DNA from: Escherichia phage JY01
Strand: one strand, 5' to 3'
Length of the DNA stretch: 64,000 nt
Sequence record: OR995200.1
The notes under the pieces are model-generated. The model was not told where the DNA came from and searched no databases. It saw only the letters and a program-made list of their open reading frames with translations. A program made the translations under genes and the position numbers. Below, one piece after another: positions 8,677 to 45,207 of the stretch. How positions within the stretch are numbered: position 1 is the first letter of the stretch; each line of letters opens with the position of its first letter.

Positions 8677-10854
8677 TTAGGCCGCAAGGGCCTTCATAGT
8701 TTTAGCGATTTGGGAAACTTCATCATCACTCAAAGAGTTACGATAACCGATGAAGTCGGAAACAATACGGAATTTCTTGGTAAACTCAGCAACCATTTTA
8801 TCACTATTTTTTGAAGCATTACGTGATAATTCATCAAAGAGATTAGTTACTGTCCAGATATCATGACCGATGGTATCTTTTCCACCATTGAAATACACAC
8901 CGCGTAATGAACTAACCATATTACCAAGTCGTGTATATTCTTCAGAAACTTCATCTGTACTGAAGTACTTCATCATAAAATCTAGTTCAGGATACTTGAT
9001 AATTTTATCAATATATCGTTGAGCTGAACTTGAATAACCTACATACTTATCATAATCTACATCATCAAAAGCATCTACATATAAATCACGCAAAGCTTCA
9101 AAAATACATTGGCACTGACCGAGTTCTTTTACCTTTTTCTGTAAAAGCGGACGAATAACATAAAATTCATTAATGCCAATAAGATTAGCCATACGAATCA
9201 AAATATTCATAGATGGATGACAAAGTGATGTAGTACCATCCATAGAGAAAATATCAGAACGATGCATATACGCTACATAACCAGTAATTTCATCTGCTTC
9301 TGACGTAAGTGTAAATAGTTCCTCTTTTTCCCATCGTCCATCTTTAATTTCAAATTTAAATGCTGTAGCAGCTTTAGGACGAGGAGCTTTACTTTTAACT
9401 ACCTTTGGAATATAGCTTTTAACTAAAGCTTCAATTTCTGACAAATAATGAATGTTAACTTCATCACTTTCAAACATTGCCATAATATCAGGTAGTAAAT
9501 CAATCTGCGATTCTACTTCCGGATTAATAAACAGAAGACGCTCATTGTGATGAATATTTAAAGTGTTATTAAATTCACTATCATCTAACGCATGCGCTAA
9601 TCCACGGACAATATTAACACGATTTTTAATATTATCAATAACGATATTAATTTTTGTTGTATTAATACCAAACAGACGATAACTTGATGCAACGGCTGAA
9701 GTTTCATGGCTTTGCTTAATGCGTTTCAGTCGAGGGTCAAGATTTACTTCATACACAACTCCTGCATTGCATAACTTACTATCAGGTTCAAACATGCTCT
9801 GCATCTTTTTATATGACAGATTTTTAGTCGTGAATTTGACTGAATTACTAATCATATAATCTCGAGCAGAATACCCCATCTTCATCAATTCACGATATGT
9901 GTGACGAGGAGATGTAGATTCTTTAAATCGTTTTACATCTTCATTAAATGCTTTCTCACTGAGTTCTTTAACTCGTTCAATGATATTTTTACGAGTGCGA
10001 TCATCTAGTGAAAGAGCCTCGCGAGATGGAGCAATATCAAGTGAACCCATTGGAAACTTAATGTAATTCACTTCATTGCGAATGCTTAGCCAGTTACGGT
10101 CTCTAATAACACCATCGATAGGATAAACAATACCGCCATAGATAGCATATAATCCACCGCGATCAGGCCAGTATCTTTCTGGATTTACGCCATAATAATC
10201 ATCAAAATCCGGAAAATAATCAATTTCGCGGTCAAGACCATTAATGATAGCCAAATCTTTGAATGGTCGCATGATATAAGAAACTTCATAAGCAAAGTTT
10301 CTAAAGTCTTTTTCTTCAACTGGAACTACGATTTCAATACCAGTTTTATCATTTGGACCCATTTCTTTTACGAATGTAGGTTTAATTTGTGGACCATCGC
10401 CATCCATGTAAGCTACATAACCACGAATTTCACCTTTATGATACGAAGTAATACTAAACGTATCAGTATAACTAAACGGAGATTTAGAACCTAAACCAAA
10501 TCCGCCAATAAAGTCATTAGATTCAGCCTTAGATGAACTGAAATATGAATTATACAGCCCAGGAGAATTATCATCACCCTGAATATCAAAATCACTCATA
10601 CCCGGACCAAAATCTCGACAAACAAATCGTGGATCTAAACGTCCAGGAACTTGAATGATAAATTTTTCAGGATTTCCATTGAGAGCATGGGCATCAATCA
10701 TGTTGGTAATCAATTCACGAACAACTGCGCGAATTTTGTTTGTATACAAATCAGATGACAGAATTTTAAATACTTTAGGAGATGCTGCGATGCTAAATGC
10801 TTTTGATTTAGAACCATTGCCAAGAATTGTTTCTTTTTCAGTGGTGATAATCAT
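8677..10854 (-). CDS. rIIA: rIIA protein
   Basis: 725 aa as in T4 rIIA. N-terminal GHKL-ATPase-like region ([10 protein letters not shown], GxGxG). Confidence 0.9.
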
Positions 10855-11091: not shown

Positions 11092-11123
11092 TAATTATAC
11101 CACATCCTTGTGGTAAAGTAAAC
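11092..11123 (-). promoter_or_regulatory. Early promoter
   Basis: GTTTAC, 17 nt, GTGGTATAAT on the minus strand, upstream of the rIIA.1-position ORF. Confidence 0.5.
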
Positions 11124-12943
11124 TACTGGCTCATCCATTCTTTACGAAGGTCAGCATTATCTCCCATGAGCATTTCAAAAAGATCTTTCCAGTTCTCAGG
11201 AAGTTTAACAACATCATATACTGGATTTTGAATCATCTCACGATATTCAGATTTTTCCAAAGAGCCAAGTCCCTTAATATAACGGATGCTATGTTTAGGT
11301 AGAGCATCTTTAGCACTCTCATATTCAGCGACTGTATAAAACCATTCTTGTTTTTTACCGACCTGGGCGATGATTACAGGAGTTTTGACAAAGCGAATTC
11401 GTCCTTGCTCAAACAATTCTGGCCAATTACTAAAAAATCCAAGAAGAGAAGGATAAATGCTTCCTAGACCATCATGGTCAGCATCAGTCATAATAGCAAT
11501 ATTATGATAATTCAAGTTTTCAGCTTTTTCACCAAGAACTAATCCAGTGATTGCGCAAATATCAAATAGTTCTTTGTTTTTAAGCATATCAGCATATGAC
11601 ATACCCCAACTGTTGAGAACTTTACCGCGCAATGGATAACCACCATGAAGTTCTTTATCACGAACATCAATAAGATATCCGATAGCAGAATCACCCTCAG
11701 TCAAGAAAAGAGTAGTATCAGCATCTTTACCGCAAAGATTCGCTTTGATATGTTTATGAACCTTTGCCTTAGAAGCCTTTTTAGCTGCTTTAGTTTCAGC
11801 TGCTTTTTCTGCTGCCAATTTACGAGCTAGTGCAGCTTCAATAATTGGCATCAGAATTGCTTCATTATTTAGAATAGCGCGTGAAATCTTTTTAGCGTCA
11901 AGTTGAATATGACTACGGATTTCACCAAATGGAGAAGTCAAACGCTCTTTAGTTTGAGAATCAAATCGCATGTTTTTCATATCACGAACAAACATAACGA
12001 TAGTCAAACATTCTTTAACACGTGCTTTAGTTACATCAATTTTGAACTTACGTTTGATTTGTGGAATAAGGTCTTCACAAATATCATCCATAACACAGTC
12101 AATGTGATGACCACCATTCTTAGTATGAATGTTATTGACGTATGTTAATTGACGAAAACCATCCGGTGAACGACCAACCGCAATAGAACAATTTTCTTGT
12201 TCTTGAACAATAGCATGCTCATCATATTGGCGTGCATATTTCTTAAAATTACCCTGAACCTTTTTACCGTTAAAGGTAAATTGAATATCAGGATAAACTA
12301 CTGCAAGTGTCTGGAGACGATCTAGTGTAATGTCAAGATAAACCTGAGATAGCTCATTAGTTTCAAATGACATAAAATCAGGAATGAAAGTAACACGAGT
12401 TCCTTTCCATTTTCCAGGAATATCTTCCCATGATTTATTTTCCATGCCATTTGAACAACGAACTACAATATTATTTTGACCGTCGCCAGTTTCACCGACA
12501 AACATAACAGAAAAAATGTTAGTTAAACTAGAGCCAACACCGTTCATACCGCCAGTGACGCGTTCTTTATCATCGCCGAAGTTACCACCTGCTTTTGGAA
12601 TAGTCCAGGCGGCAACAGGACCAGGAATTTCTTCACCAGTAGGTGTTTTAACCATCGCTTGTGGAATACCACGACCGTTATCTTCAACTGTTACTTGATT
12701 GTTTTTAATAGTAACGTTAATTTTATTTGCGAATTTAAACTTAGTACGAATACCTTCATCTACTGAGTTATCGATAATTTCATCAATAAGCTTAACAAGA
12801 CCAGGTACATACTGAACACTTTCCCATTTACCAAACAGAAAGCGCTCATGCATTTCATTAGCAGAAGAACCAATGTACATGCCGCTACGCTTTTTGATAT
12901 GTTCAATATCGCTCAGAATTTTAATTTCATTCTTAATCATCAC
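11123..12943 (-). CDS. 39: DNA topoisomerase II large subunit (GyrB-like), unsplit 39+60 form
   Basis: 606 aa with GyrB ATPase and TOPRIM regions in one ORF. T4 splits this into gene 39 plus gene 60; here it is continuous. Confidence 0.9.
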   Translation of the reverse strand: MMIKNEIKILSDIEHIKKRSGMYIGSSANEMHERFLFGKWESVQYVPGLVKLIDEIIDNSVDEGIRTKFKFANKINVTIKNNQVTVEDNGRGIPQAMVKTPTGEEIPGPVAAWTIPKAGGNFGDDKERVTGGMNGVGSSLTNIFSVMFVGETGDGQNNIVVRCSNGMENKSWEDIPGKWKGTRVTFIPDFMSFETNELSQVYLDITLDRLQTLAVVYPDIQFTFNGKKVQGNFKKYARQYDEHAIVQEQENCSIAVGRSPDGFRQLTYVNNIHTKNGGHHIDCVMDDICEDLIPQIKRKFKIDVTKARVKECLTIVMFVRDMKNMRFDSQTKERLTSPFGEIRSHIQLDAKKISRAILNNEAILMPIIEAALARKLAAEKAAETKAAKKASKAKVHKHIKANLCGKDADTTLFLTEGDSAIGYLIDVRDKELHGGYPLRGKVLNSWGMSYADMLKNKELFDICAITGLVLGEKAENLNYHNIAIMTDADHDGLGSIYPSLLGFFSNWPELFEQGRIRFVKTPVIIAQVGKKQEWFYTVAEYESAKDALPKHSIRYIKGLGSLEKSEYREMIQNPVYDVVKLPENWKDLFEMLMGDNADLRKEWMSQ

Positions 12944-24522: not shown

Positions 24523-24663
24523 TTATAATTTAGCGGCTTTCCAGAGTTGTTCAATAATCTCTTGGTCTATTTCTTTAGTTATTTCATTACGTAATAAAGC
24601 AGTAAGGGCTTTCGCCCTTTTCTTATTCAACTTTTTGAGTTGACGTTTATTTAAACGAGACAT
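24523..24663 (-). CDS. Small basic protein (about 46 aa, not in ORF track)
   Basis: MSRLNKRQLKKLNKKRAKALTALLRNEITKEIDQ... ATG overlaps the gene 56 stop (TAATG). Confidence 0.3.
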   Translation of the reverse strand: MSRLNKRQLKKLNKKRAKALTALLRNEITKEIDQEIIEQLWKAAKL

Positions 24664-25181
24664 TAATAACCTCGGTCTTGACGTGCGAAATTTTCAGCAT
24701 TTTTCAGGTAATAAAGTTTAAAGATTTCTTCTGCTGTAAGACCAAGACCTTGGAACATATTCAGAACGAAATGGAGAATATCAATCATTTCAAATTTAAT
24801 TTCCAGTTGGTCTTGTGGAGACAAATCAGTAATCAGAGTTTCACGACGTTCACCATGCTGCGACTTCCAAGGTTTCCATACAGCAGATGCATCTTTTTCA
24901 CCATTGCTCATACCACCAAGAGAAGTCAGAAGTTCGCGGAATTCATCATCAATATAATCTTTCTGATTACGCATCCAATCAACAACTTCACCTGCAGTAG
25001 CCAAATCATCAGGATGACGGTTATATTCAGGTTTATCTTTAGCTAAACGAACCTGTAAAGATTTCTGCATATCAAGCATAACTTGCAGCGGGTCTTTTTC
25101 ATCACCGAGAATATCCCAATATTCATTTTGAGCTTTATCAGCGCCTTCAATCAGTTGTGAACATTCGTTAAAGTAAGCCAT
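24663..25181 (-). CDS. 56: dCTP pyrophosphatase (MazG-like)
   Basis: Track ORF trimmed to the ATG with AAGGAAA Shine-Dalgarno, giving about 172 aa versus 171 in T4 gp56. Confidence 0.8.
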   Translation of the reverse strand: MAYFNECSQLIEGADKAQNEYWDILGDEKDPLQVMLDMQKSLQVRLAKDKPEYNRHPDDLATAGEVVDWMRNQKDYIDDEFRELLTSLGGMSNGEKDASAVWKPWKSQHGERRETLITDLSPQDQLEIKFEMIDILHFVLNMFQGLGLTAEEIFKLYYLKNAENFARQDRGY

Positions 25182-29929: not shown

Positions 29930-30274
29930 TTAAAAGAATTTAAATTTTTTCTTTGACCTTTTATTAAATGCATCTTGTAGTTGCATTGTAATACATTTTT
30001 CTACATGAGGAGCTAACTCAGCTTTTCTTTCTTGGTCAAGAACAGCAAAGTCCATTACGACTTTTCCATCAACCCAATCTAATTTTGTCACATACACAAT
30101 GTGTGTAGAACCATCTTCTAGTTTAATGACAATCTCCTGGATAACATTTTCCATGGCAGATTTAATTATCTTAAGAGATTCATTAAAAAGACGTTCTTTT
30201 CTTTCTTCTTCCCCCTCCGAAGAGGGGGATTCATCGATAATTTCTAGATCTAAGTCTAAATCATCTTTATTCAT
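29930..30274 (-). CDS. 40: Head vertex assembly chaperone gp40 candidate
   Basis: Between uvsX and 41. The track ORF starts at a GTG inside uvsX; the first ATG gives 114 aa. Start uncertain. Confidence 0.5.
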   Translation of the reverse strand: MNKDDLDLDLEIIDESPSSEGEEERKERLFNESLKIIKSAMENVIQEIVIKLEDGSTHIVYVTKLDWVDGKVVMDFAVLDQERKAELAPHVEKCITMQLQDAFNKRSKKKFKFF

Positions 30275-31448
30275 TAAATTCTTCCATATCACTTAACTGT
30301 TCGAGGTCAGTTTCTAAATCAGCAGCTGATTTACTTTTACTTTCTGGAGATTTAAATTTTTCAACCTTTGAGTTAATCAATTCATCAACTTCAGCTTCAA
30401 CAATTTCATTACTATCAATAGCACCTAACTGATAAGCACGTTTAATAGCATCTCGGAATGGTTGATGCTTAAATAAAGGACCCCAGAATGTAGTGCAGTT
30501 AGTATCTTTTGCACGCCAAGATTTTTCTTCGCGAATCATCTCGCCGGTTTCTTCTTCAAGAAATTCACGAGCATACCAACCATTCTTAGGTTTTACTACA
30601 AATCCTAATTCTAGAGCCATATCTAACAATCCAGAATAAGGATCGATACCACCGTCAAATTTAACATCAATAAAGAATTTACTTTTTTCTTTAACGGTAC
30701 GAGATTTTTCTACATTTAGAACAAATTGATACCCCTGAAGATCAGAACCATCTTTAATCTGACGCTTACCGATAATGAATACAGTATCAGCCGAATACAT
30801 TACGCCTGTACCACCTGTCATCACGGTTTTACTAAACATTTCAATTGTTTCAATTGTATGGTTAACCGCAACACACGGAATATTTTTAATGCTAAAATAA
30901 GGAGTAACGATACGGAATAATGACTTCAGTGATTTAGCACGAGTCATATCTGCAACAGATTTTTCATTCAAGGCATCTTCCGTTTCTTTCTTAGAAGCCA
31001 TATTACCGATTGAGTCGATGAATACAATAACCTTTTCGCCACGCTCAATAGCTTCAAGCTGATTCACCATATCAATTTTCAGCTGTTCAACTGATTGAAT
31101 TGGCGTATGAATTACACGTTCCGGGTCAACTCCCATGGATCGCAAATAAGCTGGAGTAATACCAAATTCGCTATCATAGAATAGACAAACCGCGTCAGGA
31201 TATTTGTTCAAATATGCCGCAACCATAGTCAAAGACATATTTGATTTAAAGTGTTTAGAAGGCCCTGCGAAAATAGTTAAACCAGACTGCATACCGCCAT
31301 CAATCGCACCAGAAATAGCGATATTAAGCATTGGGATTTTTGTACGAATTACATCCTTTTCATTAAAGAATTTAGATGTAGTCAGTTCGGCAGTCATTTT
31401 AGAAGTGGAAGCTTTAATCAAACGGGATTTTAAATCTGCAATAGACAT
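30267..31448 (-). CDS. uvsX: UvsX recombinase (RecA-like)
   Basis: 393 aa, Walker A GPSKHFKS. Similar to recalled T4 UvsX with scattered substitutions. Confidence 0.9.
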   Translation of the reverse strand: MSIADLKSRLIKASTSKMTAELTTSKFFNEKDVIRTKIPMLNIAISGAIDGGMQSGLTIFAGPSKHFKSNMSLTMVAAYLNKYPDAVCLFYDSEFGITPAYLRSMGVDPERVIHTPIQSVEQLKIDMVNQLEAIERGEKVIVFIDSIGNMASKKETEDALNEKSVADMTRAKSLKSLFRIVTPYFSIKNIPCVAVNHTIETIEMFSKTVMTGGTGVMYSADTVFIIGKRQIKDGSDLQGYQFVLNVEKSRTVKEKSKFFIDVKFDGGIDPYSGLLDMALELGFVVKPKNGWYAREFLEEETGEMIREEKSWRAKDTNCTTFWGPLFKHQPFRDAIKRAYQLGAIDSNEIVEAEVDELINSKVEKFKSPESKSKSAADLETDLEQLSDMEEFNE

Positions 31449-31525
31449 TCATTTTTTCCATAGGCATCATTATATTTTCCTCACTGGTTAAAGATAGAGT
31501 AATTATAACACAATAAATTTAGGCA

Positions 31526-32368
31526 TTAATCAACTGCTATTGGATGAATAGCATTAAACTTATGAAACGCTTCTGATTTTTCTTTGCGCGAAACACACAT
31601 GCGAAGAACCTTTAATGGCTCGTCTTCTTCACCCAACGATTTTCTCTTTTCAATATTCGATGTTTTCCAACGAGCTTGCTCTGGAAACTCTCTATTGATT
31701 TGCTCAAGCGCTCTATTATGTTTAGAATTACTACGAATTGAACTACATCCGCCAGGAGCTTGTGCTTTTCCAGATACAACCAGATATTTGAACAGGGCCA
31801 AATGCGGATAACCTTGACTAATTAAATTGAGAAATGCATACATATCTTCGCATAAATCAATTTTTCCATACCCAATTTGTTCTGTCGTAAGTTTTCCGAG
31901 GTCATACCATGTATTCGTGAATCCATATGAATTTTCACGATAATTACCCCAAGATGAAGTAATTTTAAAAATAGGTAGACGAGCATGGCCATGATAATAC
32001 CCGCAATCCATGGCATCCTCAACATATTGAATCAATTCATAGAACTGTTCACGAGTCAATTGATTGACTTTATCTACGCAACGACGATCATCTCTTTTTC
32101 GCATTGAACTCATACGAATAGTAGTATCATCGTCAATCATCCAGATTCGTTGACCTGCATATATATCGGTAATTGCTTTACGAGTACCGGCAATTCCGTT
32201 TACATCATCAGGAATAGTTATAATTTTAGCTCTAGACCCATAAGCGTCATGATAAGCTTTTTCTTCATGTTCACGCACTACAATATGGGGTTCATAATCA
32301 GTCGGAAACATATCAAGGGCAGAAACTGCCCCGACACGCTGATAACTTGGAATTACGAATTGAATCAT
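31526..32368 (-). CDS. Putative DNA hydroxymethylcytosine glycosyltransferase, GT-A-like
   Basis: About 280 aa at the locus where T4 has bgt (351 aa). IWMIDDDTTI has a DxD-like motif. ATG overlaps the gene 42 stop. Resembles the T2/T6 arrangement by position only. Confidence 0.55.
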   Translation of the reverse strand: MIQFVIPSYQRVGAVSALDMFPTDYEPHIVVREHEEKAYHDAYGSRAKIITIPDDVNGIAGTRKAITDIYAGQRIWMIDDDTTIRMSSMRKRDDRRCVDKVNQLTREQFYELIQYVEDAMDCGYYHGHARLPIFKITSSWGNYRENSYGFTNTWYDLGKLTTEQIGYGKIDLCEDMYAFLNLISQGYPHLALFKYLVVSGKAQAPGGCSSIRSNSKHNRALEQINREFPEQARWKTSNIEKRKSLGEEDEPLKVLRMCVSRKEKSEAFHKFNAIHPIAVD

Positions 32369-33105
32369 TTCCACTCACCGTTATAATCTTTTTTCACAAT
32401 ATGAGTTTCGCCAGTATTCCACCAATGATCAACCAAGTAAAAATGACGAGAATATACATGAAGACTTCCAACATTCCATATAATAGAACCTGCTTTATAC
32501 TGACGAGTTGAATCGCCGGCATTCAAATCAGATACTAATTTATCTAATACGTATTTTTGCCATGCATAATCATTACGGAATCCGAAGACCACGTCATTTG
32601 AGCGCATGCTTACTACTGCATTGACTTTCTTATCACGAATCAGATACTGTACGGTATTCGTACACATGAAATCTGACATACCATCTTTATTGTAGTCAAA
32701 TTGCATGGATGGACGAGTATAAATCATGATACCACGTCGAGAATCAGGATTTTGACCAAGTTCAGCTAAACACATATCATACTGGGCATAGTTATCTTCT
32801 GACCAGATAGCCCAACCATAATTCGAGTTAATTTCGCCTTTAGAAGATGCTACCTGCTGCCAAATCTTTGGTGTTTCACCTGGAATATCTTTAACAAACA
32901 AGCTCTTAGATTTATACCATTCAAGTTCGCGCTGAATGTATTCATCATTAAGAGCGCCAAAAATAAACGGTTCATCTGCTACAAATGATGCGCCAATAAT
33001 TTCAATAGTTTTAACACCAGTTTTATCAACTACGAAATCTTTTTCTTTTAATGCAAGCCCCAAATGAAGACGGATTTCTTCAACTGTCATAGAGTCACTA
33101 ATCAT
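32365..33105 (-). CDS. 42: dCMP hydroxymethylase
   Basis: 246 aa as in T4 gp42. Thymidylate-synthase-like fold expected. Confidence 0.9.
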   Translation of the reverse strand: MISDSMTVEEIRLHLGLALKEKDFVVDKTGVKTIEIIGASFVADEPFIFGALNDEYIQRELEWYKSKSLFVKDIPGETPKIWQQVASSKGEINSNYGWAIWSEDNYAQYDMCLAELGQNPDSRRGIMIYTRPSMQFDYNKDGMSDFMCTNTVQYLIRDKKVNAVVSMRSNDVVFGFRNDYAWQKYVLDKLVSDLNAGDSTRQYKAGSIIWNVGSLHVYSRHFYLVDHWWNTGETHIVKKDYNGEWK

Positions 33106-43989: not shown

Positions 43990-44006
43990 AAGGGCCGAAG
44001 CCCTTT
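43990..44006 (-). terminator. UUCG-tetraloop hairpin, terminator-like
   Basis: GGGCCGAAGCCC followed by a T-rich tract on the minus strand at the end of the 400-aa gene. Confidence 0.45.
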
Positions 44007-45207
44007 ATTTTGTAATAATGTCAAACTGTTCTTTAAAACAGAAGCTTGAATCTTGATGCTGATACAAAAATTCATAAGCTTTTTCACGTTCGCGGTCATA
44101 AAGAGCTCGGTCAGATGACAGTTCTTTAATACGTTCAAATGTTGATTCCATATCATTTTCATCAAACCAAATGATACCGCTATCATGCGAGGTCAAAGGA
44201 GTATTATCAACACGGAATTTTAAATTTTCGCCAGTAGATTTCCAAAATACCGGAATTGTTCCACATGCACCAAGCTCGAGATGAGTATATTCTAAAGAAC
44301 GTTGTAGATATTTTTTATCCAACTTACTCAACTGATAACCAAAACCGGATTTACTCATACGTTCAAGCATTTCGCTATTTACATAACGGTCAAGAATTTG
44401 CGTTGGCAAATTAGGAGCAATTTTAATTTGGTCTACTTGATGAAGACGATAATACTCGTATGGAATTCCTTTTTCTTTAATAGGAATGAACGCTGGAGAA
44501 CGTTCCAGACCTTCCATAATAGTACTTAGTCCTGCAGGTTTAAGATGTTTTTCATGAAAATCAAACATCTGATAAAAACCTTTCCATGTAGTCGTACGAC
44601 CAATCCAACGGTTAACATTCATGTTAACTTCAGAAACATCTTTCCAGTAGGTTGACCGAACCTTCGCAATATCCATAGGAGGCTGAAAGTTATATACTGT
44701 CGGTGCTTCTTCAATATCATCAAACAGAGAAACAGTTTCTGGATACCATTCTTTCATCAGAACTTTATTAAAATCGCCATTATCAGAATGGCTAAAAATA
44801 ACATCAGCTCGACGAACAGTTTCTTCTAATCCCAAATTTCGACGCAAAGAAAGAGAAGAATGGTCATGCTGATAAACTACAACACGAACAGAAGGTTTAA
44901 TGTTATCAATAATTTTTTTATAGTTATTAATAGTGTCTTCTTCAACCGAAGTAGCAGGAACTGAATTGATAATTAGAATATCACAATCATTTACCAGCTT
45001 AAGTGTTTTATCGTATTCTTTTGCCAATAAAACCGGAATTGAAAATGATTTATAATCATGCGCACAATTACGAGTAAATGATTTATCTTTAGCATAAACC
45101 AAAGTTACTTCATGACCATTTTTAATAAACCAATCACGTTGCTCAAGAGAAAATTTAGTTACACCACAACCTTCAAGACCTCGAGCCATAAAAATACATA
45201 CTTTCAT
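44005..45207 (-). CDS. agt: Alpha-glucosyltransferase candidate
   Basis: 400 aa, same length and position (between 55 and 47) as T4 a-gt. Not verified by motif. Confidence 0.6.
   Translation of the reverse strand: MKVCIFMARGLEGCGVTKFSLEQRDWFIKNGHEVTLVYAKDKSFTRNCAHDYKSFSIPVLLAKEYDKTLKLVNDCDILIINSVPATSVEEDTINNYKKIIDNIKPSVRVVVYQHDHSSLSLRRNLGLEETVRRADVIFSHSDNGDFNKVLMKEWYPETVSLFDDIEEAPTVYNFQPPMDIAKVRSTYWKDVSEVNMNVNRWIGRTTTWKGFYQMFDFHEKHLKPAGLSTIMEGLERSPAFIPIKEKGIPYEYYRLHQVDQIKIAPNLPTQILDRYVNSEMLERMSKSGFGYQLSKLDKKYLQRSLEYTHLELGACGTIPVFWKSTGENLKFRVDNTPLTSHDSGIIWFDENDMESTFERIKELSSDRALYDREREKAYEFLYQHQDSSFCFKEQFDIITK

What the first reader, a model, noticed from the sequence alone, without database searches (positions are those of the whole stretch)
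31526..32368. Short GT-A-type glycosyltransferase at the bgt locus
A protein of about 280 aa with a DxD-like motif sits between uvsX and gene 42 where T4 encodes the 351-aa beta-glucosyltransferase. The hydroxymethylcytosine sugar chemistry in this phage may therefore differ from T4 (for example glucosyl-glucose or another sugar), which bears on resistance to modification-dependent restriction.
Basis: inference. Interest (0 to 1): 0.45.

Follow-up and report, generated by a model that had tools for sequence, protein, structure and literature searches.

The report
T2/T6-type second DNA glucosyltransferase (βα-gt)

The parts
31526..32368 (-). βα-gt (ggt / TAGT): beta-glucosyl-HMC-alpha-glucosyltransferase, 280 aa
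   Evidence: ORF. 98.2% identical to T2 and about 98% to T6. Pfam PF20691 at 1.4e-10. PHROG 842 at 7.8e-88. Annotated as this enzyme in the closest genome, ECML-363.
32126..32134 (-). Codons for D79-D80-D81, the DxD-type motif of the GT-A fold
   Evidence: Invariant in alignment A1, 10 sequences down to about 30% identity. It follows strand E74-77 in the model, as in GT-A enzymes. A role in binding metal and the UDP diphosphate is inferred from the fold.
32365..32379 (-). Translation start region: GGTGAG (32374..32379), a 5-nt spacer, then ATG overlapping the gene 42 TGA as ATGA (32365..32368)
   Evidence: Read directly from the sequence. T2 has the same 4-nt overlap. Translational coupling to gene 42 is inferred.
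32365..33105 (-). Gene 42, dCMP hydroxymethylase, which makes the hmC precursor
   Evidence: 100% identical to T2 gp42 and 97% to T4 gp42. Pfam thymidylate synthase family.
44005..45207 (-). α-gt, the DNA α-glucosyltransferase that makes the α-glucosyl-hmC acceptor for βα-gt
   Evidence: 99% identical to T2 α-GT and 91% to T4 and T6 α-GT over 400 aa.
24663..25181 (-). Gene 56, dCTPase/dCTP pyrophosphatase, which keeps unmodified C out of phage DNA. The start coordinate is approximate.
   Evidence: Position mapped from the ECML-363 annotation 'dCTP pyrophosphatase' onto the ORF that ends at 24663. Not tested further.
30267..31448 (-). uvsX recombinase, the downstream flank of the locus
   Evidence: 90% identical to T4 UvsX. 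Pfam T4_UVSX_C and RecA.
31524..31548 (-). Last 25 nt of the βα-gt gene region, stop codon included, also kept in T4 just upstream of segA
   Evidence: 24 of 25 bases match T4 (L003 4239-4263), E = 5.6e-6 in a 3-kb by 4-kb comparison.

Best explanation
The ORF encodes the T2/T6-type beta-glucosyl-HMC-alpha-glucosyltransferase (βα-gt, ggt or TAGT). The pathway has four steps. Gene 56 and gene 42 replace dCTP with hydroxymethyl-dCTP. The replisome then puts hmC into the DNA. α-GT (44005..45207) adds an α-linked glucose to hmC in the DNA. This GT-A enzyme then uses UDP-glucose, bound through its DDD motif, to add a second glucose in β-1,6 linkage to the first. The product is gentiobiosyl-hmC. The virion DNA is therefore predicted to hold a mixture of bare hmC, α-glucosyl-hmC and gentiobiosyl-hmC, with no β-glucosyl-hmC. 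The second sugar hides α-glucosyl-hmC from defences that read or remove it, such as the Brig1 glycosylase and the BapA deglucosylase. Shown here: sequence identity, family, fold, gene context and the absence of b-gt. Taken from the literature on near-identical enzymes: donor, acceptor, linkage and the protective effect. Inferred: the protein is active, and the DNA is T6/EH2-like (mostly gentiobiosyl) rather than T2-like.
Against: Nothing here contradicts it. There are four limits. No DNA chemistry exists for this particular phage. The C-terminal half of the model is of low confidence (residues 126-150 and 203-211 are below pLDDT 50), and the Foldseek E-values are weak (best 2.3e-3). No solved structure exists for the family. 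The share of diglucosylation cannot be read from sequence: T2 and T6 enzymes are about 98% identical, yet their DNAs hold 5% and 72% gentiobiosyl-hmC.
Confidence: 0.93

Rival explanations
1. Same enzyme, but weakly active as in T2. The DNA would be mostly α-monoglucosylated, with only a few percent gentiobiosyl-hmC.
For: The neighbouring genes are T2-like: gp42 is 100% and α-GT 99% identical to T2. Durham phages with the same gene set range from about 1:2:2 (hmC: mono: di) to almost no monoglucosyl form, so the ratio varies between close relatives.
Against: Both T2 records carry R11H and P251S, at an invariant and a nearly invariant column. The window protein keeps R11 and P251, as do T6 and EH2 (high gentiobiosyl). 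The causal role of these residues is untested.
Confidence: 0.15
2. A TAGT-family enzyme that transfers a different sugar (arabinose or another), or that acts directly on hmC rather than on α-glucosyl-hmC.
For: The TAGT family is diverse. Some members pair with β-GT and some occur without any α- or β-GT. Mosigviruses arabinosylate their DNA.
Against: The protein is 98% identical to enzymes with known activity. Gene 42 is the T4/T2 hydroxymethylase type, 97-100% identical, not the Mosigvirus 5-hydroxy-dCMP synthase. Only about 270 bp separate the rIIA-sized ORF (8677..10854) from the next large ORF (11123..12943), which leaves no room there for the second Mosigvirus arabinosyltransferase described. 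These ORF identities were judged from size and T4 gene order only.
Confidence: 0.02
3. A functional replacement for T4 β-GT that puts a single β-glucose directly on hmC.
For: It occupies the same position in the genome.
Against: There is no sequence similarity and the fold class differs, GT-A against GT-B. Phages with this gene set lack β-glucosyl-mdC by LC-MS.
Confidence: 0.01
4. An intact-looking gene that is inactive, or is decaying under laboratory passage.
For: Both deposited T6 genomes carry a lesion in this gene: an amber codon at codon 10 in one, and loss of one Asp of the DDD motif in the other.
Against: The window ORF is full length, keeps all 42 invariant residues including DDD and R11, and keeps the coupled start.
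Confidence: 0.03

Closest known systems
Phage T2 and T6 beta-glucosyl-HMC-alpha-glucosyltransferase (βα-gt / ggt / ba-gt)
   Same: Same length (280 aa), same locus between gene 42 and uvsX, same 4-nt overlap with gene 42, 98% identical in protein sequence, and the same partner α-gt.
   Different: Five substitutions against T2 (R11H, H40Y, I69M, S184N, P251S, written window-to-T2). Against T6: H40N, D55G, I69M, R106H and S184N, besides the lesions in the two T6 records. H40, I69 and S184 are absent from all the T2, T6 and EH2 sequences compared.
TAGT of Durham-collection phage EH2 (OZ034684), with LC-MS-characterised DNA
   Same: 277 of 280 residues identical, with the same locus. EH2 DNA is about one-third hmC and two-thirds gentiobiosyl-mdC.
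   Different: H40Y, I69M and S184N. No chemistry is available for the window's phage.
Pfam PF20691, TET-associated glycosyltransferase (TAGT) family
   Same: Full-length match (profile positions 2-205 of 205) above the gathering score. Conserved IPSY-x-R and DDD motifs.
   Different: The family name comes from members next to TET/JBP-type dioxygenases. Here hmC is made at the nucleotide level by gene 42, and the window part examined (about 20-46 kb) shows no TET/JBP gene.
T4 β-glucosyltransferase (b-gt, GT-B fold, CAZy GT63)
   Same: Same position in the genome, and both use hmC-DNA-linked substrates.
   Different: No sequence similarity. The fold is GT-B rather than GT-A. It is 351 aa rather than 280. 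It adds one β-glucose directly to hmC rather than a second glucose to α-glucosyl-hmC.
GT-A glycosyltransferases of cells, mostly CAZy GT2 (BcsA, K4CP, TarP/TarS, RmlT)
   Different: Only 6-16% sequence identity. The acceptor is a sugar on duplex DNA. The C-terminal acceptor half has no confident model or match.
Mosigvirus (RB69, Bas46/47, NP) DNA arabinosyltransferases
   Same: Second-step sugar addition that gives disaccharide-modified cytosines in T-even relatives.
   Different: They use a different base precursor (5-hydroxy-dC), a different sugar and different loci. Nothing in the window points to them.

Membership tests
T2/T6 βα-gt (beta-glucosyl-HMC-alpha-glucosyltransferase) | Full-length, high sequence identity to the T2 and T6 enzymes | tested here: met
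   98.2% over 280 aa to T2. 98.1% over 261 aa to the annotated T6 product. Residue differences are listed.
T2/T6 βα-gt (beta-glucosyl-HMC-alpha-glucosyltransferase) | Located between gene 42 and uvsX, in place of T4 b-gt | tested here: met
   Homology with T4 breaks at window 32383 and 31436.
T2/T6 βα-gt (beta-glucosyl-HMC-alpha-glucosyltransferase) | Same genome has an α-glucosyltransferase that makes the acceptor, and the hmC pathway (genes 42 and 56) | tested here: met
   α-gt at 44005..45207, 99% identical to T2. gp42 is 100% identical to T2. Gene 56 is placed by synteny with ECML-363.
T2/T6 βα-gt (beta-glucosyl-HMC-alpha-glucosyltransferase) | Transfers glucose from UDP-glucose in β-1,6 linkage to α-glucosyl-hmC in DNA, giving gentiobiosyl-hmC | not testable with these tools
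   Known for T6 from deletion mutants and for near-identical phages from LC-MS. Not measured for this phage.
Pfam PF20691 TAGT | Score above the curated gathering threshold | tested here: met
   41.9 bits against 27.5, covering profile positions 2-205 of 205.
GT-A fold glycosyltransferases | Single Rossmann-like α/β/α nucleotide-sugar domain | tested here: met
GT-A fold glycosyltransferases | Conserved DxD motif at the end of a central β-strand | tested here: met
   D79-D80-D81 are invariant and follow strand E74-77. Metal dependence was not tested.
T4-type β-glucosyltransferase (GT-B) | Sequence or fold similarity to T4 β-GT | tested here: not met

The most novel reading that the evidence does not exclude
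The ratio of mono- to di-glucosylated hmC among T-even phages may be set by a few substitutions in this enzyme. T2, the classic 5% gentiobiosyl phage, carries R11H and P251S at otherwise conserved sites. The window's enzyme keeps the consensus residues, so it would give T6-like, mostly gentiobiosylated DNA. If this holds, the modification phenotype, and with it sensitivity to Brig1/BapA-type defences, could be predicted from this one gene. That the window enzyme itself has a new specificity is essentially excluded.
Probability: 0.3. Interest if true: 0.3.

Novelty: already known. Interest (0 to 1): 0.08.

Why it matters
The gene tells us what the phage DNA looks like: bare hmC, α-glucosyl-hmC and gentiobiosyl-hmC, with no β-glucosyl-hmC. 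That pattern predicts which host defences can act on it. GmrSD/BrxU-type enzymes still cut such DNA. The second glucose partly blocks Brig1 and BapA. McrBC-type enzymes may see the unglucosylated fraction. This is useful for annotation and for choosing phages for therapy. It is not a discovery: the chemistry dates from 1960-62, the gene is annotated under this name in many of the several hundred phage genomes that carry the locus, and papers from 2024-2026 re-examined it by genetics, LC-MS and structure prediction.

Tried and rejected
- A sequence search of the PDB found no relative; the best hit was E = 1.1 to an unrelated protein. No solved structure exists for the family, so I used AF2 plus fold search.
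- NCBIfam has no model for the βα-gt or the α-gt.
- The promoter and terminator scan around the locus did not exceed the shuffles: 15 promoter-like sites against 12.0 ± 3.3, and 1 terminator-like site against 1.4. I make no claim about a dedicated promoter.
- The homolog search returned only 11 clusters, so the AF2 alignment was shallow, which probably explains the poor C-terminal model. I ran no further search on it, because the fold had already been published.
- IMG/VR scans for the T2-type His11 codon context and the Arg11 context found 2 and 4 loci. Only two of them, both Arg11, were real βα-gt genes. That is too few to say how rare His11 is.
- The arabinosyltransferase and β-GT-replacement readings are rejected; the reasons are given under Rival explanations.

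Full report
**Observation**

The window carries a minus-strand ORF from 32368 (ATG) to 31526 (stop included), 280 aa. The mechanical ORF list extends it by two codons to a GTG at 32374. The ATG is the better start for three reasons. It forms ATGA with the stop codon of the upstream gene. GGTGAG sits five bases in front of it. The same 843-nt gene is annotated in T2, EH2 and ECML-363.

Upstream lies gene 42 (32365..33105), which is 100% identical to T2 gp42 and 97% to T4 gp42. Downstream lies uvsX (30267..31448), 90% identical to T4 UvsX. The DxD-like motif is D79-D80-D81 (window 32126..32134). T4 has the 351-aa b-gt, followed by the homing endonuclease gene segA, at this position.

**What it is**

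The window is a Tequatrovirus genome segment. It is closest to ECML-363 (98.7% over 24 kb), then wV7 and SfPhi01. The ORF's DNA occurs in 574 phage records, 449 of them at 95-99% identity. Many of these records annotate it as 'beta-glucosyl-HMC-alpha-glucosyltransferase'.

- The protein is 98.2% identical to the T2 enzyme. It is 98.1% identical to the annotated T6 product over 261 aa.
- It differs at only three residues (H40Y, I69M, S184N) from the ortholog of Durham-collection phage EH2.
- It matches Pfam PF20691 (TET-associated glycosyltransferase, TAGT) over the whole profile, at 41.9 bits against a cut-off of 27.5.
- It matches PHROG 842, 'beta-glucosyl-HMC-alpha-glucosyltransferase', at 7.8e-88.
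- BLASTP against T4 β-GT and α-GT gives nothing better than E = 3.8. tblastn of T4 β-GT against all 64 kb gives nothing better than E = 1.4. The window therefore has no b-gt.
- The window does have α-gt (44005..45207), 99% identical to T2's.
- It also has gene 56 (dCTPase), placed by synteny with ECML-363.

**Fold**

The homolog search returned 11 clusters ranging from 98% to 28% identity. In the alignment of ten sequences, 42 columns are invariant. These include I6-P7-S8-Y9, R11, D79-D80-D81 and G206-G207.

The AlphaFold2 model built from that alignment has mean pLDDT 70.4 and pTM 0.72. Residues 1-120 are mostly at 70-95. The segments 126-150, 203-211 and 261-280 are poor.

- Foldseek finds the same classes, but weakly, with a best E of 2.3e-3.
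- No GT-B enzyme, and neither T4 α-GT nor β-GT, appears in the listed hits.
- No member of the family has a solved structure.
- PMC13216743 reaches the same GT-A assignment from an AlphaFold3 model of the T6 TAGT.

**How it works**

This part rests on the literature for near-identical enzymes. In T2 and T6, α-GT puts an α-linked glucose on hmC in the DNA. The βα-GT (TAGT) then adds a second glucose to it, giving gentiobiosyl-hmC, which is β-1,6-glucosyl-α-glucosyl-hmC (citing Lehman & Pratt 1960, Kornberg et al. 1961 and Kuno & Lehman 1962).

- Deleting ba-gt in T6 leaves only α-glucosyl-hmC and makes the phage more sensitive to the Brig1 glycosylase (PMC11078745).
- T6 Δg-gt DNA, unlike wild-type T6 DNA, is deglucosylated by BapA.
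- HPLC/MS of ten Tequatrovirus isolates that carry α-GT plus TAGT and no β-GT found hmdC, α-glucosyl-mdC and α-gentiobiosyl-mdC, and no β-glucosyl form. EH2 and six others had about one-third hmdC and two-thirds gentiobiosyl-mdC (PMC13390438).

Two things are my inference: that the window's enzyme is active, and that its DNA resembles EH2's. The first rests on the intact ORF, conserved motifs and coupled start. The second rests on the three-residue difference from EH2. Positions 40 and 184 are variable columns of the alignment, and position 69 is mostly M.

**How common it is**

T4-type β-GT homologs are found in 126 phage records, and only 29 of them are at 90% identity or more (T4 and close kin). 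The βα-gt locus is found in 574 records. PMC13216743 reports that only 6 of 753 phage genomes carry both α-GT and β-GT. It also reports that the vast majority pair α-GT or β-GT with a TAGT. T4 is therefore the unusual phage, and this window shows the common arrangement.

**Verdict**

The 'glucosyl-glucose' option is right and the 'another sugar' option is not. The feature is already known in every respect that can be checked here. Interest is low.

**Side observations, not part of the finding**

- Both T2 records carry R11H and P251S in this enzyme. R11 is invariant and P251 nearly invariant in the family alignment. T2 DNA classically has only about 5% gentiobiosyl-hmC, against 72% in T6. These substitutions are a candidate explanation, untested. 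I could not check whether this has been published.
- The two deposited T6 genomes each carry a different lesion in the gene. MH550421 has an amber codon at position 10, and its CDS is annotated from Met20. AP018814 has lost one Asp of the DDD motif in frame.
- T4 keeps 24 of 25 bases of the 3' end of the βα-gt gene, stop codon included, just upstream of segA. This suggests that T4's b-gt/segA cassette replaced a T2/T6-type gene.

Noticed in passing
L002:4283-5125 (T2 AP018813) and L005:2286-3128 (T2 MH751506), compared with window 31526-32368: Both T2 records have R11H and P251S in the βα-gt, at an invariant and a nearly invariant column of the family alignment. The window, T6 and EH2 keep R11 and P251. 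This may explain why T2 DNA holds only about 5% gentiobiosyl-hmC against 72% in T6.
   Followed up: partly
L001:4138-4980 (T6 MH550421) and L004:2135-2974 (T6 AP018814): The two deposited T6 genomes carry different, probably disabling lesions in this gene. One has a TAG codon at position 10, with the CDS annotated from Met20 (261 aa). The other has an in-frame loss of one Asp of the invariant DDD motif (279 aa). These may be laboratory-stock mutations or sequencing errors.
   Followed up: no
window 31524-31548 = L003:4239-4263 (T4, just upstream of segA): T4 keeps a 25-nt remnant (24 of 25 bases) of the 3' end of the βα-gt gene, stop codon included, between b-gt and segA. Homology between the window and T4 otherwise breaks at 32383 and 31436. 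This fits a T4 b-gt/segA cassette that replaced a T2/T6-type gene.
   Followed up: partly
H100/H101 (Serratia phage PS2), H108-H114 (Salmonella phages STP4-a, STML-198, Melville); protein P0010: In some T4-like phages outside Tequatrovirus, a TAGT homolog (48% identical in PS2) lies in a genome that has a β-GT homolog, and in several it appears to be next to it. The acceptor there would be β-glucosyl-hmC, so the family probably holds more than one acceptor specificity, as PMC13216743 also notes.
   Followed up: no
window 32316-32332 (-): A GC-rich hairpin, GGGGCAG-TTT-CTGCCC(T), followed by a T-rich stretch, lies inside the first 50 nt of the βα-gt coding sequence. It was the only terminator-like hit in the region, and the count did not exceed the shuffles. 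It is also present in T6.
   Followed up: no
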